Positions 22,100-55,174 of a stretch of DNA of 64,000 bases are shown piece after piece. A program made the position numbers and the translations under genes. The DNA comes from Acidimicrobiaceae bacterium. Its GTDB lineage: Bacteria > Actinomycetota > Acidimicrobiia > Acidimicrobiales > JAUTXP01. The notes below the pieces were generated by a model. The model worked only from the letters and a program-made list of their open reading frames with translations, had not been told where the DNA came from and made no database searches. The DNA lies in NCBI GenBank assembly GCA_030837965.1, contig JAUTXP010000046.1, forward strand, positions 38,326 to 102,325, in the 5' to 3' direction. Position 1 is the stretch's first letter. Each line of letters starts with the position of its first letter.

Positions 22100-22140
<41 letters not shown>

Positions 22141-30303: not shown

Positions 30304-30335
30304 GGCCGATCGACACTTGGTGAGATGATCGAACG

Positions 30336-42600: not shown

Positions 42601-42786
42601 CTTTACGAGGCATGGGGCAGGCGCACGCGCGCCAGGCTGTCGACCGTCTTGCCATTTGCAACGGCCGCGGTCACCGATCTGTTGGAGCGCAGCCGCACGC
42701 CGCTGCCCCTTGTCGATGGTGCACTCTCGCTCGACCTGCACCCGTTCGAGATCACGACCCTCGTGTTCGAGCTCACGCCGGAGTAG
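39691..42786 (+). CDS. GH38 alpha-mannosidase
   Basis: 'GNAHIDTAWLWPFRET', 'FACSQPQQLAWM' and 'GAMWVEADCNVPSGESLVRQ' motifs. 1031 aa counted from the ATG at 39691. Confidence 0.9.
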   Translation: MEETPAVTRERVRKALWRDVLPAVYGPTAPLAVSAHHVGGEPISVAAAMPASYEPFEVGGEWGAAWDTTWFRLHGRIPDDWRGAEVVVRVGLGYQGMVGFGAEAIVWEDGVPAQGLSPKHSTYRITEKAAGGDVVDVLLEAAANPIADLDARPAPSLRPDYGGAPRFRLDRAELAVCNREVEGLVLDMDVLLDLYDHLPHDEPRASRILRCLVRALNVLDFDNVADTSAAARDVLVEAMSVRAPSSAHRLAAVGNAHIDTAWLWPFRETVRKCARTFSTALRLMDEYPDYRFACSQPQQLAWMKEQYPELFERIKDRVREGRFELVGAMWVEADCNVPSGESLVRQIAHGCRFLEDEFGVTPGEVWLPDVFGYSASLPQIMRRAGITRFLTQKLSWSTVNRVPHHTFWWEGIDGSRVLTHFPPADTYNGDFSMDQLEHNVRSFKDHDVSGRSLYLFGYGDGGGGPTRELLEKAARYRDIEGAPRVEMSSVEEFWEAAQAELLAAGDRAGVWVGELYLEFHRGTYTTSAMSKRENRSLELLLREAELWSAVRPDGLSHYPSAGLDKAWKDVLLLQFHDVLPGTSIAWVYDDSRSMYASARAAADSAISAAVHALLDGVDTSGMESPVAILNSSPARRREVVSVFGEPHLVDVPALGYVVIDGAHAGGADGVVVGDRTLENEHLRVTLADDGTLSSVWDKDAGREVLAAASQPADGARGNLLQLHEDRPPNWDAWDIDASYMDKADDLDAVESITVVEGGGLVGSLRVARAFGRSRLAQDVVLRAGSRRIDFVTEVDWQESHKLLKASFPVDVHARRATYEIQYGHVERPTHRNTSWDWARFEVCAQKWVDLSEPGYGVALLNDGKYGHDVFGNVMRLSLLRASSSPAPDIDRGVHRFTYALFPHVGDLREAGVIEEAYALNLPLRVVPLTGHGGSAGAASARSWAPFAVSAPGVFVEVVKRAERTDAVVVRLYEAWGRRTRARLSTVLPFATAAVTDLLERSRTPLPLVDGALSLDLHPFEITTLVFELTPE

Positions 42787-44405
42787 AGCGAGGTGGGCCT
42801 GCGCCTACCCTGGATCGTCTTGCCCTGGTAGCTCAGATGGATAGAGCACCGGACTTCTAATCCGATGGTCGCAGGTTCGAGTCCTGCCCAGGGCGCTGTC
42901 TGCGCCAGCGCGCGAACCAGCTTCGGCCCTGTGCTGCCGGTCGGGACGCGGAAGGTCGGGACGATGGGCTGGCGGCTGGTGACCTTGATCTCGGCGATCA
43001 GGGCCTGCATGAGGGCCTTGCGCTCCGGCCACCCGCCCTTGGTCAGCGCGGTGCGGACATGGCTCGTGAGGGCCTTCATGGTCTTGGCATCCGGCACCGC
43101 GAAGTCGCCGTCGCCGTCACGTGCCGCTGCGTCCTCCAGGGCTTGCGCGATTGCCGCTCGTCGGGTGCGGAGGTCTGCCGCCCGCTCGCCCAGGTCGCGG
43201 ATGCGCTTGACGAGCGTGTCCTCCTTGAGCCCGCCGCTCTCGAAGGAGTCCATGTAGCGCTCGATGCCGGCTTCCGTCTTGGCCAGCTCCGTGTCGACGG
43301 CGGTCAGCTCCTTGCGCTGCTGGTCCTTGACCTCCTCGGCCCGCTTGCGGATGGCCTCGATGGCCCGCTCGAACAGGTCCGTGCGCTCGTAGGTCCGAAG
43401 GAGGCTGTCGACCACCTGGCGGTCGAGCTCCTCGCTGGGGACGCGGTCGGTGGCGCAGACCTTGGAGCCGTAGCGGACCTTGGTGCCGCAGGTGTAGTAG
43501 CGGTACTGGTAGCCCGCCCGCCCGTTGGCCACGCCGCCCACGAAGTGCGCCCCGCATTTGGCGCACACTACGAGGCCGCTCAGCAGGTAGGGCGACGAGT
43601 TCGCCCCGAGGCGGCGGGAGTTGTAGGCCCGCTCGCTGCGGATGGCCTGGGCCGCGTCGAAGACGTCCTTGGCCACCAGCGACGGGTGCTTGCCCTGGTG
43701 CCACTGGTCCCGCCAGTTCACCTCGCCGACGTAGACCCGGTTGCGGAGGATGCGGATGACGTTGGTGTAGGTCCACAGTCGCCCCGCCGAGTTCCGGTGC
43801 CCGTTGGCGTTGAGCCAGTCGGCCACGCCGTGCCCGCCCAGGCGGCGCTTCACGTAGAGGTCGAAGATGATCGGGATGAGCGCGGCCTGGTCCTCGTTCA
43901 CCACGAGGTTGCCGTCGTCGCCCCGCACGTAGCCGAACGGCGCGGACCCGACCGGCCACTCGCCGCGTGCCGCCTTGCGCTCCAGCCCTGCCACGATGCG
44001 GTCGACGATGGTGGCCCGCTCGAACTCGGCGAACACGCCGAGCATCTGCACCATCATCCGCCCGGCTGGGGTCGTCGTGTCGAACGGCTCCGTCGCTGAG
44101 CGGAAGGCGACGCCGGCCTTGTCGAGCTCTTCGAGCAGGTGCGCCAGGCCCCGGACTGAGCGGGCGAAGCGGTCGACCCGGTAGACGAGCAAGAGGTCGA
44201 AGCGCTTGGCCTTCGCCTCCCCGATGGCCCGCTGGAGGCCCGGGCGGTCGGTGGTTGCGCCGGACTTCTGGTCGGTGAAGCTCTTCACCAGTTCCCAGTC
44301 CGGCTGGCTGTCGATGTAGGACTGGAGGCGGGTGGCCTGGGCCTCCAGCGAGTACGGCTGGTGCGCCTCGTCCGTCGAGGTGCGGGTGTAGGTGGCGACC
44401 CTCAT
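42603..44405 (-). CDS. Large serine recombinase (resolvase domain + recombinase domain + zinc ribbon + coiled coil)
   Basis: 'VATYTRTSTDE' (catalytic Ser region), 'LLVYRVDRFARS' and 'CAKCG...YYTCG'. SD GGAAGGAG precedes the ATG at 44405. The ORF has no stop before the tRNA, so the last 97 codons or so (42603-42895) are antisense read-through of tRNA-Arg and the GH38 3' end. Confidence 0.85.
   Translation of the reverse strand: MRVATYTRTSTDEAHQPYSLEAQATRLQSYIDSQPDWELVKSFTDQKSGATTDRPGLQRAIGEAKAKRFDLLLVYRVDRFARSVRGLAHLLEELDKAGVAFRSATEPFDTTTPAGRMMVQMLGVFAEFERATIVDRIVAGLERKAARGEWPVGSAPFGYVRGDDGNLVVNEDQAALIPIIFDLYVKRRLGGHGVADWLNANGHRNSAGRLWTYTNVIRILRNRVYVGEVNWRDQWHQGKHPSLVAKDVFDAAQAIRSERAYNSRRLGANSSPYLLSGLVVCAKCGAHFVGGVANGRAGYQYRYYTCGTKVRYGSKVCATDRVPSEELDRQVVDSLLRTYERTDLFERAIEAIRKRAEEVKDQQRKELTAVDTELAKTEAGIERYMDSFESGGLKEDTLVKRIRDLGERAADLRTRRAAIAQALEDAAARDGDGDFAVPDAKTMKALTSHVRTALTKGGWPERKALMQALIAEIKVTSRQPIVPTFRVPTGSTGPKLVRALAQTAPWAGLEPATIGLEVRCSIHLSYQGKTIQGRRRPTSLYSGVSSNTRVVISNGCRSSESAPSTRGSGVRLRSNRSVTAAVANGKTVDSLARVRLPHAS
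42822..42895 (+). tRNA. tRNA-Arg (anticodon TCT)
   Basis: Acceptor GCCCTGG/CCAGGGC, anticodon loop CTTCTAA, T-loop TTCGAGT. 74 nt. Confidence 0.9.
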
Positions 44406-44920
44406 AGGTCGGCTTCTCCTTCCTGGCCGGTCACGGCCTGGTCGTGGTTGTCGTCGGTTGCTGCCGGTGTGCTGTCGCCGGCGTCGGAGGCGCTGGCCGG
44501 TGCGAGCAGCACGGCCAGGGCGATGAGCGCGGCGCGCTCGTTCTCGGGGTCGAGCGGGACGAGCAGCGGGTCGAAGATCTGGACCCGCTTTCACGGCCTG
44601 CCCCCGAGGTTCGGGCGGGGCCGGTCGTGCGGTCGGTGGTTGGGCGGGTGTGCTCCCTTTCACCGGCGTCCTCCGGGTCGCGAAGTGGCACCTATAAACG
44701 GGGTCTCGACCCCGCGAATGTCACAAGGTTTTTCGCGCGGTCGGCTTCTCACGCCCTCTAAACCGCGATTTCGAGGCCCAATGTCACGGGATTCCTCGAA
44801 CCTGCTACCGATGATCTGCATGGCGGCGCTCCATGGGGCGGGGACGGGTCCATCCCGTATATGGCGGCGAAATGCCTGAAAAGTCACAACAAGCCCGCGC
44901 GGTGCTCGAAACTCGGGGGC

Positions 44921-45292
44921 TCAGACGTCGCCGATGAGCTCGGTGTCGTTCCCGTCCACCCGCACGCCCCAGCGGACCTCGCCGCCGGGCTCGCACAGCA
45001 GGACGAACGGCCCGGGCAGCCGCACCTCCGGGTTCCCCCGGTCGGCCACGCCAAGCTCAAGTACGACGTTCCCCTCGGCCGCGAACGACAGCAGCGGCCC
45101 AATGTCCGTGAGCACCAGGCTCACCCGCTCGTGCCCGCCCTCGTCCAGCAGGGCGACGCCGGGGAAGTACCCCTCGGCGTTGCCCTTCAGGTCGCCCATC
45201 ACGACGCGCACCCGCCCAAGCGGGTCTACGACCGCGAACGGTCTCGCCACAACGAGGTCGGCCACATCTTCAAGTTCCGTAAAGTTCTCCAC
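44921..45292 (-). CDS. Hypothetical protein (123 aa)
   Basis: GTG at 45292 has GGAGGA 6 nt upstream. The ORF is coherent and co-oriented downstream of the deaminase. Confidence 0.5.
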   Translation of the reverse strand: MENFTELEDVADLVVARPFAVVDPLGRVRVVMGDLKGNAEGYFPGVALLDEGGHERVSLVLTDIGPLLSFAAEGNVVLELGVADRGNPEVRLPGPFVLLCEPGGEVRWGVRVDGNDTELIGDV

Positions 45293-45444
45293 GTCGGTTC
45301 CTCCAGTTACGAATCGGCCAGGCCGGGGGGTGTTGCTGCACCGCCCCGGCCACTGTCGGTTGTCAACCGGCCACACGACCGGCCCGACGTGGATAGGTCA
45401 CCTCCGCCGCGAACTTCAACAACCAGCGCCGCGTGACCGTCTAG

Positions 45445-45696
45445 TTAGAGCAGTTCAGAGGAGACCACGTGCATCAGCGGAGCCTGACTTGGTTCCCGCA
45501 CGCCGCCGGCTGACCGCGCTGGCAACCCGGTGGGACGCTGGCCTTGTAGCGTGGGTCGACCCCAGTCGACGGCGTCAAGGATCAAGACTTGCGCCGCCGG
45601 ACTCAGAGCGCTTGGCGGGAGGGATCTGAGATATTCCGCCGCGTGCTTTGCGCACTCGTCCAGCCAGCTCGCCTCACGGCGATTCGGCAAGGACAT
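45445..45696 (-). CDS. Hypothetical small protein (83 aa)
   Basis: ATG at 45696 has AGGAG 8 nt upstream. It lies between the deaminase and the 123-aa ORF. Confidence 0.4.
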   Translation of the reverse strand: MSLPNRREASWLDECAKHAAEYLRSLPPSALSPAAQVLILDAVDWGRPTLQGQRPTGLPARSAGGVREPSQAPLMHVVSSELL

Positions 45697-45765
45697 GTTT
45701 GATGCTCCTGGGGACTGGTCGGCCACGATCGAGACGATACGGGGTGGGTGTAACAACAACGCGCA

Positions 45766-47529
45766 TCATGTGGCGGGCTGCCCTTCTCCGCTCGCACGAA
45801 GAGCGTCTCCGCCCGCGTCGGCACTGGCGCCTGCGTCTAGCACTGGAGGCGGGCCTGTCTCGGTGGCGGGGGCACTGCCAACGGCGTCTTCTGGTTCGGC
45901 CCGCGCCGCGATTGGAACGTAGACCGGTTCGATTGCTCCCGACGCAAGACCGTTGAGGACCTGTGAGATCGACGTGACTACCGTCGACTCACGCTCTCGA
46001 ACGCCATTCTCATTCCAGCCAGCCGTCTGCGGCCATGCCTTCATCCGGTCCCACTCGATGATCTGATCGCCAACCCTACGTTCGCCCGCACGAAACGCGG
46101 TCGCATACAGCCGAGGCGCGATGCCGAAGAATTGATGAAAAGGCACGCGTCTACCACTCAATCCAGAGGTCCCGTACAACTCGGGCTCGGTGTCAATGAG
46201 ATCTCGGTACAGGCGGCTCACGAGACTTTTTGGATAGGGCTCGACGTAGTGAACCTCGGTGATCCCGGCGCCAATGATCATCTTGGCGCATTCGTGGCAC
46301 GGGAAGGTCGTCGTATACATCATTGCATCGGTGGTAGCGATGCCAGCCCGAGCAGCATTGACGATCGCCGATTGCTCTGCATGGAGACACCTGGTGAACT
46401 CGATGAGCGCCGACGCCCTAGCGCCTTCGAGGACTGACTCTCCCTCATCAGACGACTCGGTCGCCCTTGCCAGGAGTTGCGGGCCGGTCAGCGAGCGGAG
46501 CTCATCTACGAGCCATCCGCGCCTGGCAAGCCGCTCAAGCATCTCCTGGATCACCCGTTTCGTGTAAACCGGATTTGGATCCGAGCCCACCTGGAAGTCC
46601 CGGTAGTCCGGAACATCGCCACTCCAGTACTGGCCACCGCCAGGCTTCGGAACCTCGTTAGTCCCTACGATCATCGGTGTTCCGATACGCGGGACGATTG
46701 TTGCCCCCACTTGACGGCCAGCCGCTGCCGATCGCAGGCTTGCGTCGAATGCAAGGCGCATCGCTTCTTCAGCTGGCCGGGGCGTGGCAAAGGGAGCGCC
46801 GAACACGGCGTCGATAAAACGATCTACTTCGTGCGCGACGATCAACCCCCTGCCGCTGGGCAAATAGACATCCGCCATCGAGTACACGGCGCGGACGTTC
46901 TGGCCAAAGTCTTGCTCTTCCGAGTCGGATTCATCGCGGGCAATGAGGTTCTCCGCCTCCGAGCGAGGGTTCTCAAAGAGCGAGAGATGGTCCGCCAAGG
47001 CTTGCCGGCGTTCTTCGATGCTGCTCGCAACTGCAACCAACAGAAACGCGTCGCCGTAGACATGCCGCAGAAGGTGTACTTCCGATGGGTTCTTGAGGCT
47101 GCGAAGAACAAAGGCAGATTCCTTGGGTTTCGGTCCGCGCCGCTTGACGATTGCGGTCACAGCCAAGGCTGCGAGGGCTGCGGCGTTGCCTACGGCACCC
47201 CGGAGCTCATCGCCTGCGTTCATCCGTAGGCGGTAGTACTCACGCTCGCCGCGTTTCGGCAGCGTCCCCCACGGCGCAAAGGGAGTCGTATCCAGTAGGT
47301 CCGACAGCCTGACGGACTCGTACCCGTAGCCGAACCGGCGCAGCGAGTCGCGCAGTGCCGTCTCCACGTCGTCGAGCGGAGTCCCGACAGGTGCTACCAG
47401 AGCAAGGATCAGGGGGTGGCGTTCCGGGTCGCGCCTGATGACCTTGCCAAGGGACTCGCGCGCGCGAGTCGCGACGGTCGTTGGGTCGGCCTGTGACTTC
47501 GTCCCCTTCTTGCCCGGTTTTGTCGGCAT
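45766..47529 (-). CDS. Anti-phage dCTP deaminase-type protein (AvcD/DCD-like): N-terminal kinase/NTPase-like domain + C-terminal CMP/dCMP-type zinc deaminase
   Basis: Deaminase zinc motifs 'CLHAEQSAI' (HAE) and 'FPCHECAKMI' (PCxxC). An N-terminal region of about 250 aa carries a degenerate P-loop ('LVAPVGTPLD'). Confidence 0.75.
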   Translation of the reverse strand: MPTKPGKKGTKSQADPTTVATRARESLGKVIRRDPERHPLILALVAPVGTPLDDVETALRDSLRRFGYGYESVRLSDLLDTTPFAPWGTLPKRGEREYYRLRMNAGDELRGAVGNAAALAALAVTAIVKRRGPKPKESAFVLRSLKNPSEVHLLRHVYGDAFLLVAVASSIEERRQALADHLSLFENPRSEAENLIARDESDSEEQDFGQNVRAVYSMADVYLPSGRGLIVAHEVDRFIDAVFGAPFATPRPAEEAMRLAFDASLRSAAAGRQVGATIVPRIGTPMIVGTNEVPKPGGGQYWSGDVPDYRDFQVGSDPNPVYTKRVIQEMLERLARRGWLVDELRSLTGPQLLARATESSDEGESVLEGARASALIEFTRCLHAEQSAIVNAARAGIATTDAMMYTTTFPCHECAKMIIGAGITEVHYVEPYPKSLVSRLYRDLIDTEPELYGTSGLSGRRVPFHQFFGIAPRLYATAFRAGERRVGDQIIEWDRMKAWPQTAGWNENGVRERESTVVTSISQVLNGLASGAIEPVYVPIAARAEPEDAVGSAPATETGPPPVLDAGASADAGGDALRASGEGQPAT

Positions 47530-47597
47530 GGCGTCGCGACAGGATAGAGGTGTGCGCGGCAGCGCTGCGGCGGTGAGGGGGCAATTCCCTCCTCTGT

Positions 47598-47636
47598 TCC
47601 CGCCATGGGCATCCCGCGTCCCGCCATGGGCATCCC
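47598..47636. promoter_or_regulatory. Two perfect 18-bp direct repeats (TCCCGCCATGGGCATCCC), 21-bp period
   Basis: Copies at 47598-47615 and 47619-47636, in the divergent region between the deaminase and the TGT-like gene. Confidence 0.5.
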
Positions 47637-47670
47637 CGCAAATGCGGCAGCCGACGGAGAAAATGATGGG

Positions 47671-48741
47671 ATGGCATCAGTCTCTACTCGAACGCCCGAG
47701 GCCAAAGCACGTGTTCGCCGGGCGCAGTTGCTCGTCTACGCGGGCCGCAATGAGGTTGCAGCGAGGCAGGACGTACATTTGAGGCGCGGCATCATCTTTC
47801 ACGGTCGGCTCGGCGCGGTCGAGGCCGCAGGCTTGAGGAGCCGCGGGTTCACTGGGGCGCTTGCGGTGGACCCCGAGCGCTATACCAAACTCAACGAGCA
47901 GCCGCCGCGCTTGATCAGCGATGCCGATCTCTGCGCCACCGAGCAGGCGACGCTTGGGGTTTCCGCATACTTTGCGCCTTCATTCGCCACTCAACGAACC
48001 CAAGCGTCATTGCTCTCTGTGCTCGAAGATGGTGCCTCCTTTCTCTCCGCCGTGGAACGAACGGGAGCTTCGGCGCCTGCTTACGTATCCGTTGTTGTCA
48101 CTCCGTTCTGGCTCTCGGAGGGCCTCGACGTCTTAGAGACGGCCGTTCGAGATTTCGCACGACCTATCGCCTTCGTGTTCGCAGCACCATTCGATCCCCT
48201 GGGATCTCAAGCTGCCGTCGAAGGCGCACTTCGGTTGATCCAGGCCTCGGCCGGGGCCTTCATCCTTCGGTGTGACCTCTCGGCGATCGGGCTCGTGGCC
48301 GGTGGAGCGATGGGCGGTTCGGTGGGTGCATCCGCTACCACAAGACACCTCGGCATGCCGCTTCGGAATGCTCGGCGTGACAGATCGAGCAGGGACAACT
48401 CGTTGCACGTCTTTGTTCCTCGCCTCCTGAGCTGGCCTCGCGGGTCGACGCTGGAGCACCTCGCTGACGATCTCGACGTCTTTGTGTGTCGATGCGGCGT
48501 TTGCCAGGGAGATTCGCTGCTTCGGTTCCGTGAGGCTTCGCGGGCCGTCGAGGCAGAGCGTCACGCTGTGGCAGCTTGGGCCGCGATCGCTGACGCAGTG
48601 CTTGGTGACAATGACCCGATCGCTCGGTGGCGAAGCGTTCTCGAGAGTGCCGACAACGCTTACGGCGAGCTCGAGGCTGACGGCGTAGCCCTCGGTCGGC
48701 CTGGATTCATTCGCGCGTGGCTTTCAGTGCTCCCTGCGTGA
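47671..48741 (+). CDS. tRNA-guanine-transglycosylase (TGT)/DpdA-like protein, tentative
   Basis: 'CRCGVCQG...(16 aa)...RH' fits the TGT CxCxxC...H zinc motif, and 'VAGGAMGGSVGAS' resembles the TGT GGLAVGE strand. The start may instead be 47605. Confidence 0.4.
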   Translation: MASVSTRTPEAKARVRRAQLLVYAGRNEVAARQDVHLRRGIIFHGRLGAVEAAGLRSRGFTGALAVDPERYTKLNEQPPRLISDADLCATEQATLGVSAYFAPSFATQRTQASLLSVLEDGASFLSAVERTGASAPAYVSVVVTPFWLSEGLDVLETAVRDFARPIAFVFAAPFDPLGSQAAVEGALRLIQASAGAFILRCDLSAIGLVAGGAMGGSVGASATTRHLGMPLRNARRDRSSRDNSLHVFVPRLLSWPRGSTLEHLADDLDVFVCRCGVCQGDSLLRFREASRAVEAERHAVAAWAAIADAVLGDNDPIARWRSVLESADNAYGELEADGVALGRPGFIRAWLSVLPA

Positions 48742-49324
48742 CCATCGCGTTCCAGACCCGTTCCTGAACAAGCCACCTCCTCGGACCCGGCCGCACGTGT
48801 TCCCGTGTTGATGGCGAGAGCGTTGCACCGTCTCGCACAAGGCCAACTCCGACCCGTTCGGCTCTGGCGCTCCACGATGGCGCCCGGTTAACCACGAGAC
48901 CGCGTTCGGCGTCTGCAGCCAGTACGGAGATCGCCTCGAGGTCTCGCTCGCCTCGCGTTGCGCACCGGAGGACGCCGGTTAACTCGACGACTGGCCTGAA
49001 TATCCGGGTGACCGCGTCCTGGCTCCAGCTCAATGCCCATCGGGGCACTGACTCGAGAACTGCACGGTGGGCGAGTTCGAGAGATCGGAGCGGAACGGCG
49101 ATCTCCTCGGGCAGGGAGCCAAACGCCCGGAGTATGTCGCGGTCGAGAAGTGCGCCTGCTCCTGAGCGCCGGCCAGCCTCCGCCGCGTCCACTAGGCCGA
49201 TGGCCCACACGTTCACGTTGGCGAGTTGGATTTCAACGAGAGGCCTTCCCGCCCAGCCGAAGGCCTCAGCGAGCGAGGTGGCGTCGGCCCGTGTCAACCC
49301 GGTCTCGCTTGTGGCTGTCCTCAT
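48707..49324 (-). CDS. Hypothetical protein (205 aa)
   Basis: A coherent ORF whose 3' end overlaps the TGT-like gene by 35 nt (convergent). No motif recognised. Confidence 0.5.
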   Translation of the reverse strand: MRTATSETGLTRADATSLAEAFGWAGRPLVEIQLANVNVWAIGLVDAAEAGRRSGAGALLDRDILRAFGSLPEEIAVPLRSLELAHRAVLESVPRWALSWSQDAVTRIFRPVVELTGVLRCATRGERDLEAISVLAADAERGLVVNRAPSWSARAERVGVGLVRDGATLSPSTREHVRPGPRRWLVQERVWNAMVTQGALKATRE

Positions 49325-49326
49325 AC

Positions 49327-49344
49327 AGTGAAAAGCTTTTCACT
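49327..49344. promoter_or_regulatory. Perfect 18-bp palindrome AGTGAAAAGCTTTTCACT
   Basis: Read directly in an AT-rich 50-bp divergent intergenic region, with an extra half-site TTCAC at 49352-49356. Confidence 0.6.
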
Positions 49345-49374
49345 AATTAACTTCACAAGCGTGGATGGGGTTGG

Positions 49375-49638
49375 ATGACGGCAGACGGCCGAGTCTCGAA
49401 GGCCCTCTTTGGTAACGCCAACCTGCTCTCGGTCGCGGAAGCGGCGGCAGGGTTCGCTGGCGCCTTCACCGGTCGCGCGCTTGCTGCAGGCGCCGACCTT
49501 CCGGACCCGGTTGTTACCCCCATCGTTAGGCGTCTGAGCGAAGGCCGCGTCATCGTGCTGAAGCGCGAAGTCGGTCGCAGCCGCGAGTACGAGGTGGTGG
49601 ACGGTCCGTTCTGGGATCTGATTCGCTCCCTCGCCTAG
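49375..49638 (+). CDS. Small winged-helix DNA-binding protein (87 aa), tentative
   Basis: Its size, the 'IVRRLSEGRVIVLKREVGRSREYEV' wing-like segment, and its divergent position next to the palindrome. Confidence 0.5.
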   Translation: MTADGRVSKALFGNANLLSVAEAAAGFAGAFTGRALAAGADLPDPVVTPIVRRLSEGRVIVLKREVGRSREYEVVDGPFWDLIRSLA

Positions 49639-49650
49639 GGACAGGTGGGG

Positions 49651-50760
49651 CTACGAACCGCCCTCACCGGCGGGCAGGCGGTTGTACAGCCAACCTCGGC
49701 CTTGTTCTCGCCACGGACAATCGTTTTCGCCTGGAGTCAGTAGCCCTCCGGGATCGACGGTCGGCCCGAGCACTCGATATCGGTTGTGGAGCGTCTTGCC
49801 GTCCTTCTCCACCAGGCCGTCGCGGTCGGCGCGGCGCTGGGTGATGCTCACCTGGTCGGCTCGTTGCCACGACGTGCAAACGAGGATCACGTGGGCGTGA
49901 TCACCTCGCTCCTCCTCGAAGCGGTCGTAGCGGTAGAGCTCATCGAGCAGCTTCTCGACTGAGCCGCCGGGGTCGGGGACGAGAAAGAACTGCTCGACCC
50001 GGCTCTCCTCCTGCCACTCGCCGAACCAGGCCTCCCGGATGATCCCCTGAGTCCACTTCTCGACTTCCTCGGGCCGCATCCAGTCCAGCAGCTTGCAGCG
50101 TGGGTTGACCCGCTGGGTCGCCACGAGGCGGGCGTAGAACGCGCTAACGGCCACGCTGCGGGCCAGGACGGCCCGACGGGCCAAGGCGATGCCGAACGCG
50201 CCCCGGTAGCGGCGGACGGCCTGGTCGACGTTGGCACCAGTCCACGCCGCGACCACCGCCGCTCCTTCACGCCCGAGCACGTAGTGGTACGGCTCCGAGC
50301 CGCCGCCCTCCCGGTAGGGGCGGAAGCGGTCGAGGACGCCCATCTCGTAGAGCTGCTTCAACCGGACGAGCCCGCGGCCGCGGGTGTCGAAGAACATCTC
50401 GCAGATGTGGTTGGCCGTCAGCACGTTCAGCCTCCACACGGCGCGCACGATCTCCAGGTCTCGGTCGGTGAGGCGGGGGAGCAGTCGATAGCGGTAGTCG
50501 CCTGAGTGTGGGCGGGGACGGGACTGAGGGGACGCTGGTCCCCTCAGGAGTCGGGTTTCCGACTTCGCGCCCGTGACCCGCCGACGACCAGCGCCTTTGC
50601 GGCTGTCCTCCGCGAAGTCGAGCGCGGATGCGGTCACCACCGACTCCGCGAGCGACTTCGCGCCCGATGTTGCGCCCGACTCTGCGGGCCACAGCGGGGC
50701 CGTCACTTGCCCGGCTCCGACTCGACGCGGGGCTTGCGCGAGTACGGCCGACTCAGGCAC
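49651..50760 (-). CDS. Replication-relaxation family protein
   Basis: 'LTDRDLEIVRAVWRLNVLTANHICEMFF' and 'RLKQLYEMGVLDRFRP', typical of actinobacterial plasmid/AICE replication-relaxation proteins. Confidence 0.65.
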   Translation of the reverse strand: MPESAVLAQAPRRVGAGQVTAPLWPAESGATSGAKSLAESVVTASALDFAEDSRKGAGRRRVTGAKSETRLLRGPASPQSRPRPHSGDYRYRLLPRLTDRDLEIVRAVWRLNVLTANHICEMFFDTRGRGLVRLKQLYEMGVLDRFRPYREGGGSEPYHYVLGREGAAVVAAWTGANVDQAVRRYRGAFGIALARRAVLARSVAVSAFYARLVATQRVNPRCKLLDWMRPEEVEKWTQGIIREAWFGEWQEESRVEQFFLVPDPGGSVEKLLDELYRYDRFEEERGDHAHVILVCTSWQRADQVSITQRRADRDGLVEKDGKTLHNRYRVLGPTVDPGGLLTPGENDCPWREQGRGWLYNRLPAGEGGS

Positions 50761-50818
50761 AGAGGCTCGGCCTCGATGAGCGGCGGGGGGTTTCCGCCAT
50801 CAGTTAGGTGCAAGTGCC
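50759..50818. repeat. Copy A of a 60-nt repeat (extended similarity from 50737)
   Basis: 58 of 60 nt are identical to 51570-51629. It contains GGCGG-N7-CCGCC. Confidence 0.85.
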
Positions 50819-50912
50819 AAGCATGAAATACATCGAGACTTCTCAGAACTCAGAGAAGAATGCATACGTGAAGACCACGGCCGCCGACCGCGCATCGCGA
50901 TATCGTGATGTC

Positions 50913-51122
50913 ATGACGAAGCAGACGACCGTGCGACTCCCGGACGAGCTGGCCGACGAGGCCGAGGCGGTCGCGCGCGTCAAGGGCACGAGCGTCAACG
51001 CGCTCATCGTGGAGTCGCTTGCCGCCGAGATCCAGCGCGTCCGGGCCGACAAGGACTTCACCAAGCGGGCCCGCAAGCTCTTGGAGCGGGACAAGGAGCT
51101 GCTCGACCGCCTCGCCCGTTGA
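50913..51122 (+). CDS. Ribbon-helix-helix antitoxin
   Basis: 'TTVRLPDELADEAEAVARVKGTSVNALIVESL' RHH pattern. Its stop overlaps the Doc start. Confidence 0.7.
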   Translation: MTKQTTVRLPDELADEAEAVARVKGTSVNALIVESLAAEIQRVRADKDFTKRARKLLERDKELLDRLAR

Positions 51123-51517
51123 CGCGCTACATCACCCTCGCCGAGTACGTCTGGCTCGCGGAGCAGGTGACTGACGTGGAGACCGCGGTGCTTGCTAAGG
51201 CGTCCCGGCTCGACCTGGCCGACTCGGCCCTCCACGCGCCGCAGGCCGGCTTCGGCGACGACGACTTCTACCCGGACGCGATCGACAAGGCTGCGGTGCT
51301 CACGTGTCGGCTTTCGTGGAACCACTCCCTGCCCGACGGCAACAAGCGGGCGGCCTGGGCCGCCCTGGTCGTGTTCCTCGACCTCAACGACTGGGTCTGG
51401 GAGCCGGACCCGCCGGACGTCGACGAGGCCGAGGCCGCCATACAGGCGGTCGCCGCGGGCGAGGTCGATGAGGCATGGCTCGCGGACTGGCTCCGTGCCC
51501 GCGTCCGGCGGGCTTGA
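51119..51517 (+). CDS. Doc (death-on-curing, Fic-fold) toxin
   Basis: 'NHSLPDGNKRAAWAA' is a Fic/Doc-type motif (compare H.F.DGNKR). The TTG start overlaps the upstream stop. Confidence 0.75.
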   Translation: MTRYITLAEYVWLAEQVTDVETAVLAKASRLDLADSALHAPQAGFGDDDFYPDAIDKAAVLTCRLSWNHSLPDGNKRAAWAALVVFLDLNDWVWEPDPPDVDEAEAAIQAVAAGEVDEAWLADWLRARVRRA

Positions 51518-51569
51518 CGCGCTCACTTCTCGACCCCCGAACGTCGTCGCGAGTAGGGCCTCGACAGAT

Positions 51570-51629
51570 ACAGAGGTTCGGCCTCGATCAGCGGCGGGGG
51601 GTTTCCGCCATCAGTTAGGTGCAAGTGCC
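51570..51629. repeat. Copy B of the 60-nt repeat (extended similarity from 51547)
   Basis: 58 of 60 nt are identical to 50759-50818. It lies 41 bp upstream of the Phd-like antitoxin start. Confidence 0.85.
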
Positions 51630-51670
51630 TTGGCGTGGGCAGATCCAAATCACTCTGATAATCTGATCCC

Positions 51671-51859
51671 GTGAAAGAGATCTCCGCCACCGAGGCAGCT
51701 CGCGGATTCTCCGACATCCTCGACGCAGTCGAGCATCGACGACAGTCGTTCGTCGTCGTCCGGGGCGGGCACGCCGTGGCCAGACTGGAGCCGGTCGCCG
51801 CTGTTGACGGCAAGGCTCTCAAGACGCTGCTCGCCAAGCACAAGCCCGACAGGGCATGA
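51671..51859 (+). CDS. Phd/YefM-type antitoxin
   Basis: 'ISATEAARGFSDILDAVEHRRQSFVVVRGGHAVARLEP'. ATGA overlap with the PIN gene. Confidence 0.7.
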   Translation: MKEISATEAARGFSDILDAVEHRRQSFVVVRGGHAVARLEPVAAVDGKALKTLLAKHKPDRA

Positions 51860-52308
51860 CTCAAGGAACTGACCGAGATGCGCGAGGCGCTGCCCGTCGA
51901 GGAGCGGTCCTGGCCAGCCTGATCCTCGACGCGTCGGTTCTTGTCGATGCAGAGCGGCAGGGCACGAAGCTTGCGCAGATCGTCGCTGACGACGACGACG
52001 TGGCGATCGCCGCTATCACGGTCGCCGAGCTTCTCGTCGGGGTCGAGCTTGCTAACGGGAAGCGCCGTGTCGCAAGGCAGAAGCTTGTCGACGCCATCAT
52101 CGACACGCTGCCGATCGAGGACTACGACCTCAACGTCGCCCGGCGGCACGGCGAGTTACTCGCGCACGCCCGACTCGCCGGGCAACCCCGCGGCGCGCAC
52201 GAACTCGTCATCGCCGCCACAGCGGTTGCTCGCCGCCGGATTGTTGTGACCGCCGATGCCCGAGGCTTCGACGGTCTGCCCGGCGTGACCTACCGTGCCA
52301 TCCGCTGA
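51856..52308 (+). CDS. VapC-type PIN-domain toxin
   Basis: 'LILDASVLV', 'ITVAEL' and 'VVTADARGF' supply the PIN acidic residues. Confidence 0.75.
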   Translation: MTQGTDRDARGAARRGAVLASLILDASVLVDAERQGTKLAQIVADDDDVAIAAITVAELLVGVELANGKRRVARQKLVDAIIDTLPIEDYDLNVARRHGELLAHARLAGQPRGAHELVIAATAVARRRIVVTADARGFDGLPGVTYRAIR

Positions 52309-52363
52309 CCTCTCCGGGCGCACCACCATGTGTAAGGCGGGACGACCGAGATCGGAGCTGTTT

Positions 52364-52530
52364 CGCTGTCCGCATCACCGCGCGGAACCAACTTCGGGCC
52401 TGTGCTGCCAGTCGGGCCGCGGAAGGTCGGGACGATCTGCTGGCTCGACTCGCCCTTCACTTCGCGGATCAGGCCTTGCGTGGGCCTCACCCGTGACGGG
52501 CTGCGGGCCTTTGTGATGGTGCGGTCGCGG
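52364..52530 (-). pseudogene. 3' remnant of a second, diverged large serine recombinase
   Basis: 'TQGLIREVKGESSQQIVPTFRGPTGSTGPKLV' aligns with the intact 'MQALIAEIKVTSRQPIVPTFRVPTGSTGPKLV'. 46 of 50 nt are identical between 52387-52436 and 42916-42965. Confidence 0.7.
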
Positions 52531-52537
52531 CCCCACG

Positions 52538-53026
52538 CTACGGCTGACGGGCCTGGTCGACGAGGGCGGCCACGTCGTCGGTGGTCTCCACCACGATGTG
52601 GTCGAAGCGGTGGCCGGCCAGCTCGATGACGGTGGCCGGGTGCCCGCGCCGGGCTAGCACGAAGTTCTTGTCGCCGCGCCAGCGAAAGGTGCCGGCGGCG
52701 AACAGCCCGGGAATGCTGGTGCCGGGCGCCCTGATCCCTCTCGCATAGCGGAACGCCTCGCGGCCCGACACCACCGTGACAGCGGTGACCGAGGCGACGG
52801 GCACGTCGATCGTCCCGTGACACGCCCACAAGACGTTGAGACCACGCGGCGCCACCACTAATCCCTTGCCCCGACGGGTCGCTCGAGCACCGGGGGCCGC
52901 TGCCGCCGCTACCAGTATGAATACGACCAACATGACCGCGACCGCTATGTAGTACGCCGAGCCTCGCCGTATTTCGTAAGCAGCCGCGCCCAGCACGAGC
53001 AACAAGAGCAACGTCCATCGGATCAT
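52538..53026 (-). CDS. Membrane protein with a bacterial PH-like (bPH) domain
   Basis: ATG at 53026 (MIRWTLLLLL...), two N-terminal TM segments, then a soluble domain of about 100 aa. Confidence 0.5.
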   Translation of the reverse strand: MIRWTLLLLLVLGAAAYEIRRGSAYYIAVAVMLVVFILVAAAAAPGARATRRGKGLVVAPRGLNVLWACHGTIDVPVASVTAVTVVSGREAFRYARGIRAPGTSIPGLFAAGTFRWRGDKNFVLARRGHPATVIELAGHRFDHIVVETTDDVAALVDQARQP

Positions 53027-53250
53027 GTGGTAGATGTCTCCTTCGTGAGGCAGGGGCAGCTCGTTGCTCACGTTCGCACGGCCGGGCTGCGGCGGGGCGC
53101 GCACCCCTGGTGCTGGCCGCCACGGCGTGGGCACGACGGCGGATTGTCACGGCCGACAGCCGCGGCTCGAAGGACCTGCCCGGCACCACCTACCGCGGCT
53201 CGCTCAGCTCACCGACAGGGGATGCCTCGCGCACGTTGAATTATTAGGAC

Positions 53251-53967
53251 GTGCGCTCTCGTATCTCAACACCTTCGTCCGCTGTACCTGCCGCAGGCAC
53301 CGCTCGACTCGCTGCCGCCGTCGTGCTGGCCGCAGCCGTGGGTCTCGTGGCGGCCGGGCCGTCGCAGGCGGACGGGCTGCTGGCACCGGCGGGCGCCCAC
53401 GGCCACGGTGATGTTGCCGACGCGCCGCCGGGCGCGCTGCCGATGATGGCGGGGGCCTTTTTGAACGCTCCCGTGCTCGCCGTCGGCGCGGCCGACTTCC
53501 CGGGTGGCGTGCGGGTCAGGTATGCGGCGTACACCGTCACCACCGCCGACGGCCGCCCGACGGCAGCGCGGGTGTTCGCGGTCAAGCAGCAGTTGTCCGC
53601 CACGGGCGGCGAGAACACGGCGGTCGCTGCGGCCGACGTGGCCGTCCCGGTAAGCGACCTCGGATACGGGCACACGGGCGACGAGGCTGTCGGCAGCCTG
53701 CACGCGGTACTGCCGTCGCTCGGCACCCTCGACGTGCGCCTGACGGCGCCGGTCACGGGGCACGGTTCCATCACCAGCCTTCATGCCGTCCAGTGGAACT
53801 ACAACCTCACGATCGACGAGGGCCACCAGAAGACCGACGTCATCGCGGCCCACTCATACGTGCGCCTCGATGGGGTGGCGGGCGTCGTGTACGAGGCGGC
53901 CTGGGGGCGGGGAGCCAGCGGGTATGTGCGCTCGGCCTATCCCGTGGTGCCCACCGCTCCGGCCTGA
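53251..53967 (+). CDS. Secreted hypothetical protein
   Basis: Signal peptide 'AAAVVLAAAVGLVAAGPSQADG'. Confidence 0.55.
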   Translation: MRSRISTPSSAVPAAGTARLAAAVVLAAAVGLVAAGPSQADGLLAPAGAHGHGDVADAPPGALPMMAGAFLNAPVLAVGAADFPGGVRVRYAAYTVTTADGRPTAARVFAVKQQLSATGGENTAVAAADVAVPVSDLGYGHTGDEAVGSLHAVLPSLGTLDVRLTAPVTGHGSITSLHAVQWNYNLTIDEGHQKTDVIAAHSYVRLDGVAGVVYEAAWGRGASGYVRSAYPVVPTAPA

Positions 53968-53986: not shown

Positions 53987-54199
53987 TCAACGATCGAGTC
54001 GACGCCACAGGCGGCCCGCTTCGAAGCCGACGGCGCTCAACGCCAGCAGCACCGTCGCCACCGCGGTGGCTTGCGCGGGGAACACCGCCGCAGCCACCAG
54101 GGCCAAGGCCCCTACCGCGCCGATGCCCACGCCGATCACCAGCGCACGGACCGACTCCTTCGAGTCATGGCCCGTCACCTGTGCATCCGGCTGGCGCAA
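53987..54199 (-). CDS. Small two-TM membrane protein
   Basis: Hydrophobic stretches 'LVIGVGIGAVGALALVAAAVF' and 'VATVLLALSAVGF'. Confidence 0.35.
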   Translation of the reverse strand: MRQPDAQVTGHDSKESVRALVIGVGIGAVGALALVAAAVFPAQATAVATVLLALSAVGFEAGRLWRRLDR

Positions 54200-54647
54200 A
54201 GCTGGTAGGCAGACGCGACAATGCGCGGGCCGCGACTTCCTCGGTGACGTCGAACTCGGCAGCCACGTCGGCAGGAGTCACTCCGATCTCGAGGTCGGCC
54301 AGACGCAGGCAGAGCGCCTGAAGCTCGGCGGGCGGAACCAGCCGGTCGGCGACGATGTCGTTCACCCAACCCTCCTCCCGGCTCACGACCGCGTCCCACG
54401 AGTCGGGCATGAAGTCGGCGTCGCAGCCGCCCAGGCGCTCGTCGTGCACCAACTCGTGGGCCAGCAGACACCGACGTCGCACCCGCCGCTCGCGACGATC
54501 GATGAGCACAGCGACGTAACGCCCCAGCGGCCAGTACACGGCCCCGCCCAGCAGGGCAGGCAGGTCGGCCCGGCCGTACACCAGATGCGGCCGAGCCCCC
54601 AACGCGGCCCACGGGTCCCAGGTGAGTGCCATGCGGAGAGCATGCAT
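54165..54647 (-). CDS. ImmA/IrrE-family zinc metallopeptidase
   Basis: 'LLAHELVHDE' is an HExxH motif. The gene lies downstream of an HTH gene. Confidence 0.65.
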   Translation of the reverse strand: MHALRMALTWDPWAALGARPHLVYGRADLPALLGGAVYWPLGRYVAVLIDRRERRVRRRCLLAHELVHDERLGGCDADFMPDSWDAVVSREEGWVNDIVADRLVPPAELQALCLRLADLEIGVTPADVAAEFDVTEEVAARALSRLPTSFAPAGCTGDGP

Positions 54648-54661
54648 GGGCGGTGTAACGC

Positions 54662-55174
54662 TTACTTGGGCCGCGCCTTGACGTCGCCGCCGTCATCGGC
54701 GCCGGGCGAGATGTGGTGGCCGCTGGCTTCGATCTCCGCTACCTGCCCGGGCGTGAGCGGCGCCGTCTTCCCGCCCGACGCCGCCTCTCGTTCCACCCGC
54801 TCGGCATCGACGGGCCGAAGCCGCCGGGCCTTGGCCTTCCTGCGGTAGTGGTCGAACAGCACCAGCACCGCCTCCTTGCCCTCCAAGCTCAGTCCGGCCT
54901 CGCTGCGGATGCCCTCCCGCACCGACTCTGGCGTCTTGGCGAAGCCCATCACCCGCACTATCTCGCCGTGCGGCAGCCCGAGTTTGGCCTCGATGACGGA
55001 GAACCGTTTCAGCATCTCCAAGGTCATCGTGAGGGACGTGCCCTTGAACATGGCGTTGAGCATGCTGTCCGAAATATGGAGCTCGTCGGCCAAGGCCGTC
55101 TTGAACAGCCCGTTCCGCTCCAACGCCTCTTCGACCAAGTCCCTGAACGCCGAGACAGGGTCGGGGGCGGCCAC
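54662..55174 (-). CDS. XRE-like helix-turn-helix regulator
   Basis: 'KTALADELHISDSMLNAMFKG' HTH segment, paired with the ImmA-like gene. Confidence 0.6.
   Translation of the reverse strand: MAAPDPVSAFRDLVEEALERNGLFKTALADELHISDSMLNAMFKGTSLTMTLEMLKRFSVIEAKLGLPHGEIVRVMGFAKTPESVREGIRSEAGLSLEGKEAVLVLFDHYRRKAKARRLRPVDAERVEREAASGGKTAPLTPGQVAEIEASGHHISPGADDGGDVKARPK

What the first reader, a model, noticed from the sequence alone, without database searches (positions are those of the whole stretch)
42822..52530. Compact serine-recombinase element at tRNA-Arg packed with defence-type and addiction genes
Directly after tRNA-Arg(TCT) come a 600-aa-class large serine recombinase, two small ORFs and an AvcD/DCD-like dCTP deaminase. 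These are followed by a TGT-like gene, a 205-aa ORF, a small wHTH gene, a replication-relaxation gene, RHH-Doc and Phd-VapC. There are no capsid, tail or conjugation genes. The element therefore looks like a minimal integrative, possibly mobilisable element (AICE/satellite-sized) whose cargo is mostly anti-phage or stabilisation functions. Serine recombinases leave no long direct repeat, so the right end (about 52363) is inferred only from where homology to a second recombinase 3' end begins.
Basis: partly seen in the sequence, partly recalled or inferred. Interest (0 to 1): 0.62.

Follow-up and report, generated by a model that had tools for sequence, protein, structure and literature searches.

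The report
Small defence-carrying mobile element at tRNA-Arg
A 9.5-kb mobile DNA element has inserted at the end of a tRNA-Arg gene using a serine recombinase whose own last codons form part of its attachment site, and it carries an anti-phage dCTP deaminase, two toxin-antitoxin pairs and an uncharacterised two-gene module.

Summary
Window 42897-52363 is a 9.47-kb element next to tRNA-Arg(TCT). It encodes a large serine recombinase (LSR), a Replic_Relax/MOBC relaxase-type protein, RHH-Doc, Phd-VapC and a dCTP-deaminase defence gene. It has no capsid, tail or conjugation genes.

Comparison with about 80 related loci adds four points.
1. In at least 61 of 78 relatives the LSR gene abuts the 3' end of a tRNA or tmRNA.
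2. An inverted repeat GGTTCG...CGAACC (LSR Val-Arg codons versus the tRNA T-loop) spans exactly 45 nt at integrated junctions and 50 nt at attP-like junctions. This fits the known 5-bp attB/attP offset of serine integrases. The predicted crossover is at 42894-42895.
3. A distant host (flanking GH38 62% identical) carries an 89%-identical LSR at the same tRNA with different cargo, which indicates horizontal transfer.
4. The "second recombinase 3' end" (52364-52531) and a VapC fragment (53080-53214) are the wreck of an older related element. The right junction is therefore attP-like, not a true attR.

The "TGT-like" gene is a distant TGT-fold protein with the CxCxxC...H zinc motif. It is always paired with a convergent, overlapping ~200-aa partner, and the pair's function is unknown.

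Verdict: a new variant of an integrative mobilisable element. Whether this copy can still excise is untested.

The parts
42822..42896 (+). tRNA-Arg(TCT). This is the integration target and is entirely host-derived.
   Evidence: ARAGORN and Rfam at 70.1 bits. The acceptor stem differs from that of L082, while the sequence just past it is element-like in both.
42874..42918 (.). Predicted attL. It is an inverted repeat, GGTTCG (tRNA T-loop, 42874-42879) and CGAACC (LSR Val-Arg codons, 42913-42918), spanning 45 nt. The predicted crossover dinucleotide is CG at 42894-42895.
   Evidence: The same 45-nt span occurs in 63 of 82 LSR copies and in none of ~30 tRNAs that lack an adjacent LSR. The shared core CGCTGTC lies at 42894-42900 and 52364-52370.
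42603..44402 (-). Large serine recombinase. The homology-supported part is 42897-44402 (502 aa). Positions 42603-42896 are a read-through tail antisense to the tRNA and to the 3' end of the GH38 gene.
   Evidence: Pfam Resolvase, Recombinase and Zn_ribbon_recom. GC3 is 0.95. Relatives are aligned.
44660..44887 (-). o75, a doubtful small ORF or regulatory region upstream of the LSR.
   Evidence: GC3 is 0.57. It is 47% conserved in L082. No HMM hits.
44921..45376 (-). o151, a conserved backbone gene of unknown function. It could be an accessory or directionality factor, but this is untested.
   Evidence: 81% identical in L082 and 45% in L003, next to the LSR in both. The GC pattern 0.78/0.45/0.86 is typical of coding sequence.
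45445..45696 (-). o83, a small cargo ORF of unknown function.
   Evidence: Called in the Logan contig L001. No HMM hits.
45766..47529 (-). Anti-phage dCTP deaminase (AvcD/DCD type).
   Evidence: PADLOC dCTPase 4.5e-127. NCBIfam antiphage_deaminase 359.8 bits, below the cut-off. Pfam dCMP_cyt_deam_1. The HAE...PCHEC motif is present.
47671..48741 (+). Distant TGT-fold protein (356 aa) with the zinc motif CxCxxC...H. It has no named family.
   Evidence: 577 cluster representatives found. AF2 model at pLDDT 92.3. The best Foldseek matches are TGT/QTRT, E 2e-4, TM 0.49-0.54. The zinc motif aligns to TGT C318/C320/C323/H349.
48707..49324 (-). o205, the partner of the TGT-fold gene. It is convergent and its 3' end overlaps the TGT-fold gene by 35 nt.
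   Evidence: Homologous partners lie in the same arrangement in L165, L166, L167, L168-171 and L172.
49375..49638 (+). o87, a small ORF.
   Evidence: Called in L001. Only a faint PHROG hit.
49651..50760 (-). Replic_Relax / MOBC-type relaxase or nicking replication initiator. The start codon is uncertain.
   Evidence: Pfam PF13814 4.6e-18. phrog_9381 'replication initiation by nicking'. Literature.
50737..50818 (+). 82-nt repeat, copy 1, upstream of RHH-Doc.
   Evidence: 89% identical to 51548-51629.
50808..51517 (+). RHH antitoxin (50808-51122) and Doc toxin (51119-51517).
   Evidence: The module is 76-81% nt identical in L003, L007 and L011, although the LSRs there are only 57% identical.
51548..51629 (+). 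82-nt repeat, copy 2, upstream of Phd-VapC.
51671..52308 (+). Phd antitoxin (51671-51859) and VapC PIN toxin (51856-52308).
52339..52389 (.). Right junction of the element, of attP type. The P arm of the element (GGGACG, 52339-52344) is joined to the P' arm of the older recombinase remnant (GGAACC, 52384-52389). The span is 51 nt, i.e. 50 plus a 1-nt insertion. The element ends at 52363-52365.
52364..52531 (-). Remnant of the last ~55 codons of a second, older LSR gene (E0). It is frameshifted.
53080..53214 (+). C-terminal VapC fragment of the older element E0. It marks roughly the far end of E0.
   Evidence: 41.6% aa identity over 77 residues and 71% nt identity to 52177-52316.

Best explanation
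Window 42897-52363 is one copy of a family of small (about 4.5-10 kb) integrative, probably mobilisable elements of Acidimicrobiia and other Actinomycetota.

Integration. The large serine recombinase inserts the circular element at the extreme 3' end of a tRNA gene, here tRNA-Arg(TCT). One half-site of the chromosomal target is the tRNA T-arm and acceptor end, with the T-loop GGTTCG as the distal (zinc-ribbon-domain) motif. The matching half-site of the element is the recombinase gene's own last conserved codons (Val-Arg, GTT-CG), which form an inverted copy of that motif. Strand exchange is predicted at CG 42894-42895. The tRNA therefore stays intact and host-encoded, and the recombinase ORF runs on into tRNA-antisense sequence.

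Transfer. After excision, the Replic_Relax/MOBC protein would nick the circle for replication and/or for transfer by a helper conjugation system. This step is inferred, not shown.

Maintenance. RHH-Doc and Phd-VapC stabilise the element.

Cargo. A variable slot between the relaxase gene and o151 holds cargo. Here it holds a dCTP deaminase, which depletes dCTP during phage infection, and an uncharacterised module of a TGT-fold gene with a partner gene.

History of this site. This copy lies next to the wreck of an earlier related element (52364 to about 53230). It arrived there either by recombinase action on the resident tRNA-proximal junction or by homologous recombination within the recombinase genes.
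For: Shown:
- Domain content of the element.
- 50 of 78 related LSR copies have a convergent tRNA or tmRNA within 130 nt, and 11 more are followed by tRNA 3' fragments.
- The inverted repeat spans exactly 45 nt in 63 of 82 copies and 50 nt in 4 attP-like junctions. No other spacing occurs, and the repeat is absent from tRNAs without an LSR.
- This matches the published rule that the ZD motif lies 5 bp closer to the centre in attB than in attP (PMC3783163).
- In L007, attL and attR share a 14-nt core. The P-arm GGTTCG lies 5 nt further out than the tRNA arm, and attR spans 45 nt.
- In L082 the LSR is 89% identical and o151 81%, while the flanking GH38 is only 62%. The tRNA acceptor stems are host-specific and the cargo differs.
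- Related elements carry Shedu, SoFic, PDC-S04, PDC-S24 or a methylase in the same slot.
- Cargo GC3 is 0.66-0.70, against 0.83-0.95 for the backbone.
- Replic_Relax is the MOBC relaxase superfamily with a PD-(D/E)XK fold.
- The recombinase and VapC remnants lie to the right of the element.
Against: - No excised circle and no empty site were found. The predicted attP is absent from IMG/VR. No unoccupied tRNA-Arg site exists in any relative fetched. The exact proteins occur only in one MAG and one Logan contig.
- The right junction is attP-like (span 51), not a canonical attR. Canonical attL x attR excision of this copy alone is therefore doubtful.
- The P-arm motif in the window (GGGACG) matches the consensus at only 4 of 6 positions.
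- No oriT, recombination directionality factor or helper conjugation system has been identified.
- The deaminase falls below NCBIfam's equivalog cut-off.
- The att-site model rests on sequence geometry only.
Confidence: 0.75

Rival explanations
1. The element is a fossil. This copy was once mobile but is now locked in the chromosome and simply inherited. Its defence and TA genes are retained by the host.
For: The right junction has attP-type, not attR-type, architecture. The true attR of the older element was not recognisable. Backbone GC3 equals host GC3. No circle or empty site was found.
Against: All backbone ORFs are intact, with the catalytic N-terminus, the Doc motif and the PIN acidic residues present. 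The LSR is 89% identical across hosts that are only 62% identical in a flanking gene, which indicates recent transfer. The 165-nt direct repeats would still allow loss by homologous recombination.
Confidence: 0.25
2. The element is a self-transmissible AICE or an integrated conjugative plasmid.
For: The host is an actinobacterium, the site is a tRNA, and a replication/relaxation gene is present. AICEs with serine recombinases in tRNA-Leu are known in Mycobacterium (PMC3218068).
Against: There is no FtsK/TraB-like translocase, no RepSA/RepAM/Prim-Pol and no Nudix/Pif. All ORFs in the 9.47 kb are accounted for.
Confidence: 0.03
3. The element is a phage satellite (PICI-like) or a prophage remnant.
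For: The size is satellite-like and the cargo is defence genes. Three related LSRs occur in IMG/VR contigs.
Against: No capsid, terminase, packaging, primase or repressor-antirepressor genes are present. PHROGs gives only a nicking-initiator hit. The backbone shared across about 20 loci is relaxase plus LSR, not phage genes.
Confidence: 0.05
4. The 165-nt repeat of the recombinase 3' end is an intrinsic terminal repeat or a duplication made by integration itself, not a second element.
For: Similar repeats of the LSR 3' end are seen in L016, L010/L011 and L008.
Against: Serine recombinases exchange at a 2-bp core without duplication. Most family members have no such repeat. The right copy is frameshifted and diverged. 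It is followed 550 nt later by a VapC C-terminal fragment in the order expected for a deleted sister element. The loci with repeats look like tandem arrays of different elements.
Confidence: 0.05

Closest known systems
Integrative and mobilisable elements (IMEs) with a MOBC/Replic_Relax relaxase, such as the streptococcal Rel_PF13814/MobC class (PMC5357655)
   Same: Both have an integration module plus a PF13814 relaxase-type protein, lack a mating-pore apparatus, are small and carry variable cargo.
   Different: The host phylum is different. Integration is by a large serine recombinase at a tRNA 3' end. No oriT or helper system has been identified. The relaxase is very divergent, with only distant Embleya plasmid hits.
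Mycobacterium AICEs with serine recombinases inserted in tRNA-Leu (Ghinet et al. 2011, PMC3218068)
   Same: Both are actinobacterial elements in which a large serine recombinase is associated with a tRNA site, a combination that paper calls rare.
   Different: Those elements are AICEs with Tra and Rep genes, and this one has neither. Relatedness of the recombinases could not be tested because no sequences were at hand.
Phage large serine integrases (A118/LI, Bxb1, phiC31) and their att-site rules (PMC3783163)
   Same: The three-domain architecture is the same. The inferred attP is 50 bp and the inferred attL 45 bp, with the distal motif shifted by 5 bp. There is no long direct repeat.
   Different: Identity to any annotated phage integrase is only ~31%. 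The target is a tRNA rather than a protein-coding gene. The P' half-site lies inside the integrase's own C-terminal codons. Members are often found in tandem with relatives.
AvcD / dCTP deaminase anti-phage defence
   Same: The protein has an N-terminal kinase-like region plus a dCMP/cytidine deaminase domain with HAE...PCxxC. The PADLOC match is strong.
   Different: The score is below the NCBIfam equivalog cut-off. The protein has a ~65-aa low-complexity C-terminal extension. Activity is untested.
tRNA-guanine transglycosylase / DpdA superfamily
   Same: The predicted fold is a TIM barrel with a C-terminal zinc subdomain. The CxCxxC...H(N) motif aligns with the TGT zinc ligands.
   Different: There is no PF01702 hit. 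The TM-score is only ~0.5. The catalytic aspartates could not be mapped. The element carries no preQ0 pathway genes and no DpdB-like partner. Instead the gene is paired with a convergent ~200-aa protein of unknown fold.

Membership tests
Large serine recombinase | N-terminal resolvase catalytic domain with the serine nucleophile | tested here: met
   PF00239 2.6e-42, covering profile positions 2-145 of 145. The N-terminus reads MRVATYTRTS.
Large serine recombinase | Recombinase domain plus zinc-ribbon domain | tested here: met
   PF07508 2.2e-15 and PF13408 1.4e-12.
Large serine recombinase | attP about 10 bp longer than attB, with the distal motif shifted 5 bp per half-site and a short identical core only | tested here: met
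   In silico only. The inverted repeat spans 45 nt at attL in 63 of 82 copies and 50 nt at attP-like junctions in 4 of 82. The L007 core is 14 nt. The rule is taken from PMC3783163.
Large serine recombinase | Catalyses attP x attB recombination | not testable with these tools
   Needs a recombination assay.
Integrative mobilisable element (IME) | Own integration/excision module | tested here: met
   An LSR with predicted att sites. No directionality factor was identified.
Integrative mobilisable element (IME) | Relaxase and/or oriT, but no mating-pore genes | tested here: met
   PF13814 (MOBC superfamily) 4.6e-18. No T4SS, T4CP or FtsK-like gene is present. oriT was not identified.
Integrative mobilisable element (IME) | Excision and helper-dependent transfer | not testable with these tools
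   There is only indirect evidence of horizontal transfer: LSR 89% against host GH38 62%.
AICE | FtsK/SpoIIIE-like TraB translocase and a RepSA/RepAM/Prim-Pol replication gene | tested here: not met
   No such domain occurs in any ORF of 42897-52363.
dCTP deaminase defence (AvcD/DCD) | Match to the family model with an intact zinc-dependent deaminase motif | tested here: met
   PADLOC PDLC02373 4.5e-127. HAEQ...PCHEC is present.
dCTP deaminase defence (AvcD/DCD) | NCBIfam equivalog cut-off of 400 bits | tested here: not met
   359.8 bits.
TGT / DpdA superfamily | Sequence-family membership (Pfam TGT) | tested here: not met
   0 of 82 family members hit any Pfam model. The profile against PDB gives E ~0.13-0.3, limited to the zinc subdomain.
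TGT / DpdA superfamily | TIM barrel plus C-terminal CxCxxC...H zinc subdomain | tested here: met
   AF2 pLDDT 92.3. The top four Foldseek PDB hits are TGT/QTRT at full length, E 2e-4 to 6e-4, TM 0.49-0.54. C273 and H298 are invariant. C278 is nearly invariant. C275 is conserved in the consensus and invariant among the five closest homologues. The motif aligns to the TGT zinc ligands.
TGT / DpdA superfamily | Catalytic aspartates and base-exchange activity | tested here: inconclusive
Type II toxin-antitoxin (Doc; VapC) | Toxin domain with catalytic motif, preceded by a small antitoxin gene | tested here: met
   Fic/Doc 9.7e-8 with HSLPDGNKR, and PIN 1.3e-8. The upstream RHH-like and Phd-like ORFs overlap the toxin start codons.
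Phage satellite / prophage | Capsid, terminase or packaging-hijack genes | tested here: not met
   No structural or packaging hits were found in Pfam or PHROGs.

The most novel reading that the evidence does not exclude
The TGT-fold gene (47671-48741) and its convergent, 3'-overlapping ~200-aa partner (48707-49324) may form a previously undescribed two-gene anti-phage or nucleic-acid-modifying system that travels as cargo of mobile elements.

The family has about 577 cluster representatives and no entry in Pfam, NCBIfam, PADLOC or PHROGs. The partner is present in 6 of 7 distinct genomic contexts examined. Two of those contexts are mobile elements that also carry known defence genes: a dCTP deaminase here, and KwaA in L172.
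Probability: 0.3. Interest if true: 0.7.

Novelty: new variant of a known kind. Interest (0 to 1): 0.6.

Why it matters
1. The finding documents, from sequence alone, a large clade of serine integrases that target tRNA and tmRNA 3' ends. That combination has been described as rare.

2. It gives a concrete and testable att-site model. The near-universal tRNA T-loop serves as the distal recognition motif, and the integrase's own Val-Arg codons serve as the mirror half-site. The integrated and attP-type junctions show a strict 45/50-nt signature. Serine integrases are genome-engineering tools, so a clade keyed to tRNA genes, with at least 8 different tRNA or tmRNA targets, is a natural series for studying specificity.

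3. It shows that very small relaxase-plus-integrase elements act as shuttles for defence genes in poorly studied Acidimicrobiia. The cargo seen across the family includes a dCTP deaminase, Shedu, SoFic, PDC candidates and a methylase.

4. It flags an unannotated family of TGT-fold proteins with an obligate-looking partner as a candidate new system.

Tried and rejected
- Exact-protein look-ups of host flanking genes and of P0001 found nothing.
- An exact-match scan of metagenomes for the whole tRNA found nothing.
- No unoccupied tRNA-Arg(TCT) site was present in any of the 80 loci related through GH38. Only L082 shares the synteny, and it is occupied.
- The predicted attP junction is absent from IMG/VR.
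- A search for tRNA 3' direct repeats at the far ends of related elements gave only L079 (36-39 nt) and a 14-nt core in L007. The rest were at chance level, as expected for serine recombinases.
- The idea that the crossover lies inside the tRNA, with an element-supplied 3' end, was rejected for this subfamily. The acceptor stems are host-specific and no tRNA fragment lies at the far end.
- The 82-nt repeat upstream of both TA operons has no Rfam match and no fold better than shuffled sequence. The promoter and terminator scans were uninformative.
- The first structure model, from a 5-sequence alignment, was poor (pLDDT 57.5). It was replaced by a model from an 82-sequence alignment.
- The alignment A2 was too divergent to scan viral contigs.
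- o205 has no word-index homologues. Its relatives were found only through genomic context.
- An attR for the older element around 53215-53270 was looked for by eye and not recognised.

Full report
**What is there.** The window has high G+C (~0.69). P0001, a 100%-identical match to the TGT-like ORF, is annotated by NCBI as coming from an Acidimicrobiaceae MAG. tRNA-Arg(TCT) lies at 42822-42896 (+).

To its right, on the minus strand unless noted, the genes are:
- A large serine recombinase (LSR): Resolvase, Recombinase and Zn_ribbon_recom domains.
- A doubtful 75-aa ORF.
- o151.
- o83.
- A 587-aa dCTP deaminase: PADLOC dCTPase 4.5e-127, and NCBIfam antiphage_deaminase 359.8 bits against a 400-bit cut-off.
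- A 356-aa ORF on the plus strand.
- A convergent 205-aa ORF.
- An 87-aa ORF on the plus strand.
- A Replic_Relax protein: 4.6e-18, also phrog_9381 "replication initiation by nicking".
- On the plus strand, RHH-Doc and Phd-VapC.

Nothing resembles capsid, tail, T4SS, T4CP or FtsK-type genes.

Two details need correcting. First, the recombinase ORF has no stop codon before the tRNA and reads antisense through it to 42603. Homology to relatives stops at residue ~502, exactly at the tRNA end, so the "600 aa" size is a read-through tail. Second, the "TGT-like" and "wHTH" labels have no sequence-family support.

**A family, and a rule.** A genome-collection scan with the LSR returned 80 loci at 48-58% identity, mostly Acidimicrobiales and Actinomycetes MAGs, often with several copies per genome.
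- In 50 of 78 copies a convergent tRNA or tmRNA lies within 130 nt of the LSR's 3' end. The targets are Arg, Val, Ala, Glu, Ile, Leu, Lys and tmRNA.
- 11 more copies are followed by a tRNA 3' fragment, and 3 reach a contig end.
- In almost all of them the LSR ORF runs into the tRNA antisense strand, giving tails such as "...VRAxSxSxGxxGLEP".
- Replic_Relax homologues lie 1-4.5 kb upstream of the LSR in about 20 loci.
- RHH-Doc modules 76-81% identical in DNA to the window's occur in L003, L007 and L011, although the LSRs there are only 57% identical.
- The slot between relaxase and LSR is variable. It contains Shedu (L003), SoFic, PDC-S04, PDC-S24, a C5 DNA methylase, and also non-defence genes.

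**Horizontal transfer.** L082 is a JGI metagenome contig with the same synteny: tRNA-Lys, tRNA-His, GH38, tRNA-Arg(TCT). Its GH38 is only 62% identical to the window's. Yet its LSR is 89% identical and its o151 81%, and beyond o151 its cargo differs (a ThiF-like ORF). The tRNA acceptor stems differ between the two hosts, and each is complementary to its own 5' strand. The sequence from the discriminator base onward (CTGTC...) is element-like in both. The whole tRNA is therefore host DNA, and the crossover lies at its very end.

**Attachment-site geometry.**
- On one strand, the LSR's conserved Val-Arg codons read GGTTCG and the tRNA T-loop reads CGAACC. This inverted repeat spans exactly 45 nt in 63 of 82 LSR copies, whatever the tRNA.
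- It spans 50 nt in four copies (L009, L012, L016, L076) whose LSR is followed not by a tRNA but by sequence homologous to the far-end interior of L007's element. These are attP-type junctions from tandem arrays or circles.
- No other spacing occurs.
- None of ~30 tRNAs without an adjacent LSR has the 45-nt repeat.
- In L007, attL and attR share a 14-nt core. The P arm carries GGTTCG 5 nt further from the core than the tRNA arm does, and attR again spans 45 nt.

This matches the serine-integrase rule that the zinc-ribbon-domain motif lies 5 bp closer to the centre in attB than in attP half-sites (PMC3783163). It gives attP = 25+25, attL and attR = 20+25, and a predicted attB = 20+20.

In the window, attL is 42874-42918. 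The sequence shared by the two junctions is CGCTGTC (42894-42900 and 52364-52370). The geometry places the crossover at CG 42894-42895. This is inference from sequence, not a demonstrated reaction.

**The right end.** What follows is a frameshifted copy of the last ~55 codons of a related LSR (52364-52531). Next comes a probable membrane-protein gene. Then, at 53080-53214, there is a fragment homologous to the C-terminus and downstream flank of the element's own VapC. This is the order expected for a sister element (E0) that has lost its middle.

The E1/E0 junction spans 51 nt between GGGACG (52339-52344) and GGAACC (52384-52389). That is attP-type architecture with a 1-nt insertion. E1 therefore sits between the tRNA and E0's old attL arm. 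This can arise in two ways:
- Homologous recombination between a circular E1 and a resident E0 within the LSR genes.
- Recombinase action on an attL-type site, which is non-canonical for serine integrases.

The data do not distinguish these. Tandem or repeated arrangements in L012, L016, L046 and L010/L011 show that accretion is common in this family. One consequence is that this copy lacks a canonical attR of its own, so its present mobility is uncertain.

**Cargo.**
- The deaminase has the HAE...PCHEC zinc motif and matches the defence-family models along most of its length.
- The cargo block from o83 to o87 (45445-49638) has GC3 of 0.66-0.75, against 0.83-0.95 for the backbone and host genes. 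This suggests a separate and more recent origin.
- The 356-aa protein has only four word-index homologues, but a full HMM search finds 577 cluster representatives, all ~350 aa. None of 82 tested hits Pfam.
- With an 82-sequence alignment, AlphaFold gives pLDDT 92.3. Its four best PDB matches are tRNA-guanine transglycosylases at full length (E 2e-4 to 6e-4, TM 0.49-0.54), ahead of generic TIM barrels.
- The family's conserved CxCxxC...H aligns to the TGT zinc ligands. It is thus a distant member of the TGT fold, not of the TGT sequence family. Its activity is unknown.
- In the window, L165, L166, L167, L168-171 and L172, the gene is followed by a convergent ~176-219-aa gene that overlaps its 3' end by 4-35 nt. 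These partners fall into two phmmer groups. By inspection, the groups share motifs. L162-164 lack the partner.
- L172 is another mobile element, with a T4CP, Replic_Relax, a tyrosine integrase and KwaA.

**Classification.** The best fit is an integrative mobilisable element. It has an integration module and a MOBC-superfamily protein (PF13814), and it has no transfer apparatus. It is not an AICE, because it has no TraB or Rep gene. It is not a satellite or prophage, because it has no packaging genes. Serine-recombinase insertion at tRNA genes is reported as rare, with a Mycobacterium AICE group as precedent. The LSR here is only ~31% identical to any annotated phage integrase.

I rate it a new variant of a known kind. 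The att-site logic and the TGT-fold pair are the parts worth following up.

Noticed in passing
window 50737-50818 and 51548-51629: An 82-nt direct repeat (89% identical) lies immediately upstream of both toxin-antitoxin operons, RHH-Doc and Phd-VapC. It may be a duplicated promoter or operator. It has no Rfam match and no fold better than shuffled sequence.
   Followed up: partly
window 54165-55174 (-): An HTH-like 170-aa ORF sits next to a weak M78/IrrE-type peptidase ORF, an ImmR/ImmA-like pair. The pair lies between the older element's remnant and the Dus gene. It may be debris of yet another mobile element at this tRNA hotspot.
   Followed up: no
window 52538-53134 (-): This ORF probably starts at MIRW, giving ~162 aa. 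It has two N-terminal hydrophobic helices and lies inside the remnant of the older element. It has no family hit.
   Followed up: no
L033 11492-11535, 13597-13656, 17947-18021; L049 11489-11535 / 18145-18222; L072 3780-3821 / 13634-13710: Here the LSR is followed by a 42-60-nt tRNA 3' fragment identical to a full tRNA 6-10 kb away. Other elements evidently inserted later into the same tRNA and displaced the LSR element.
   Followed up: partly
L006 2707-3108, L010 3010-3384, L016 4568-4948, L002 3542-3919, L068 2362-2760 (all minus strand relative to the LSR): In the 57%-identity LSR clade, a conserved ~125-aa protein with the motif CEWCGRPLP...YCRPSCRQRAYEAR (zinc-finger-like) lies just upstream of the LSR. 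It is a candidate regulator or directionality factor. It is absent from the window's element, which has o151 instead.
   Followed up: partly
L046 103-6089; L012 2370-3926 and 9722-11608: L046 has a tandem duplication of a ~3-kb relaxase-containing unit. L012 has two LSR genes on one contig. Both suggest that arrays of related elements are frequent.
   Followed up: partly
L166 696-2359: In one context the TGT-fold/partner pair is preceded by a DprA-like (DNA_processg_A) gene with a faint LDcluster4 hit and by a 249-aa ORF. An Abi_alpha gene lies nearby.
   Followed up: no
window 22000-31000: A stretch of lower G+C (0.65-0.68, against 0.70-0.75 in the first 20 kb of the window). It was not examined.
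   Followed up: no
L082 16177-16638 (-): In the 89%-related element, the cargo next to the o151 homologue is a ThiF/E1-like ORF rather than a deaminase. This identification is by eye only; the contig ends at 16670.
   Followed up: no
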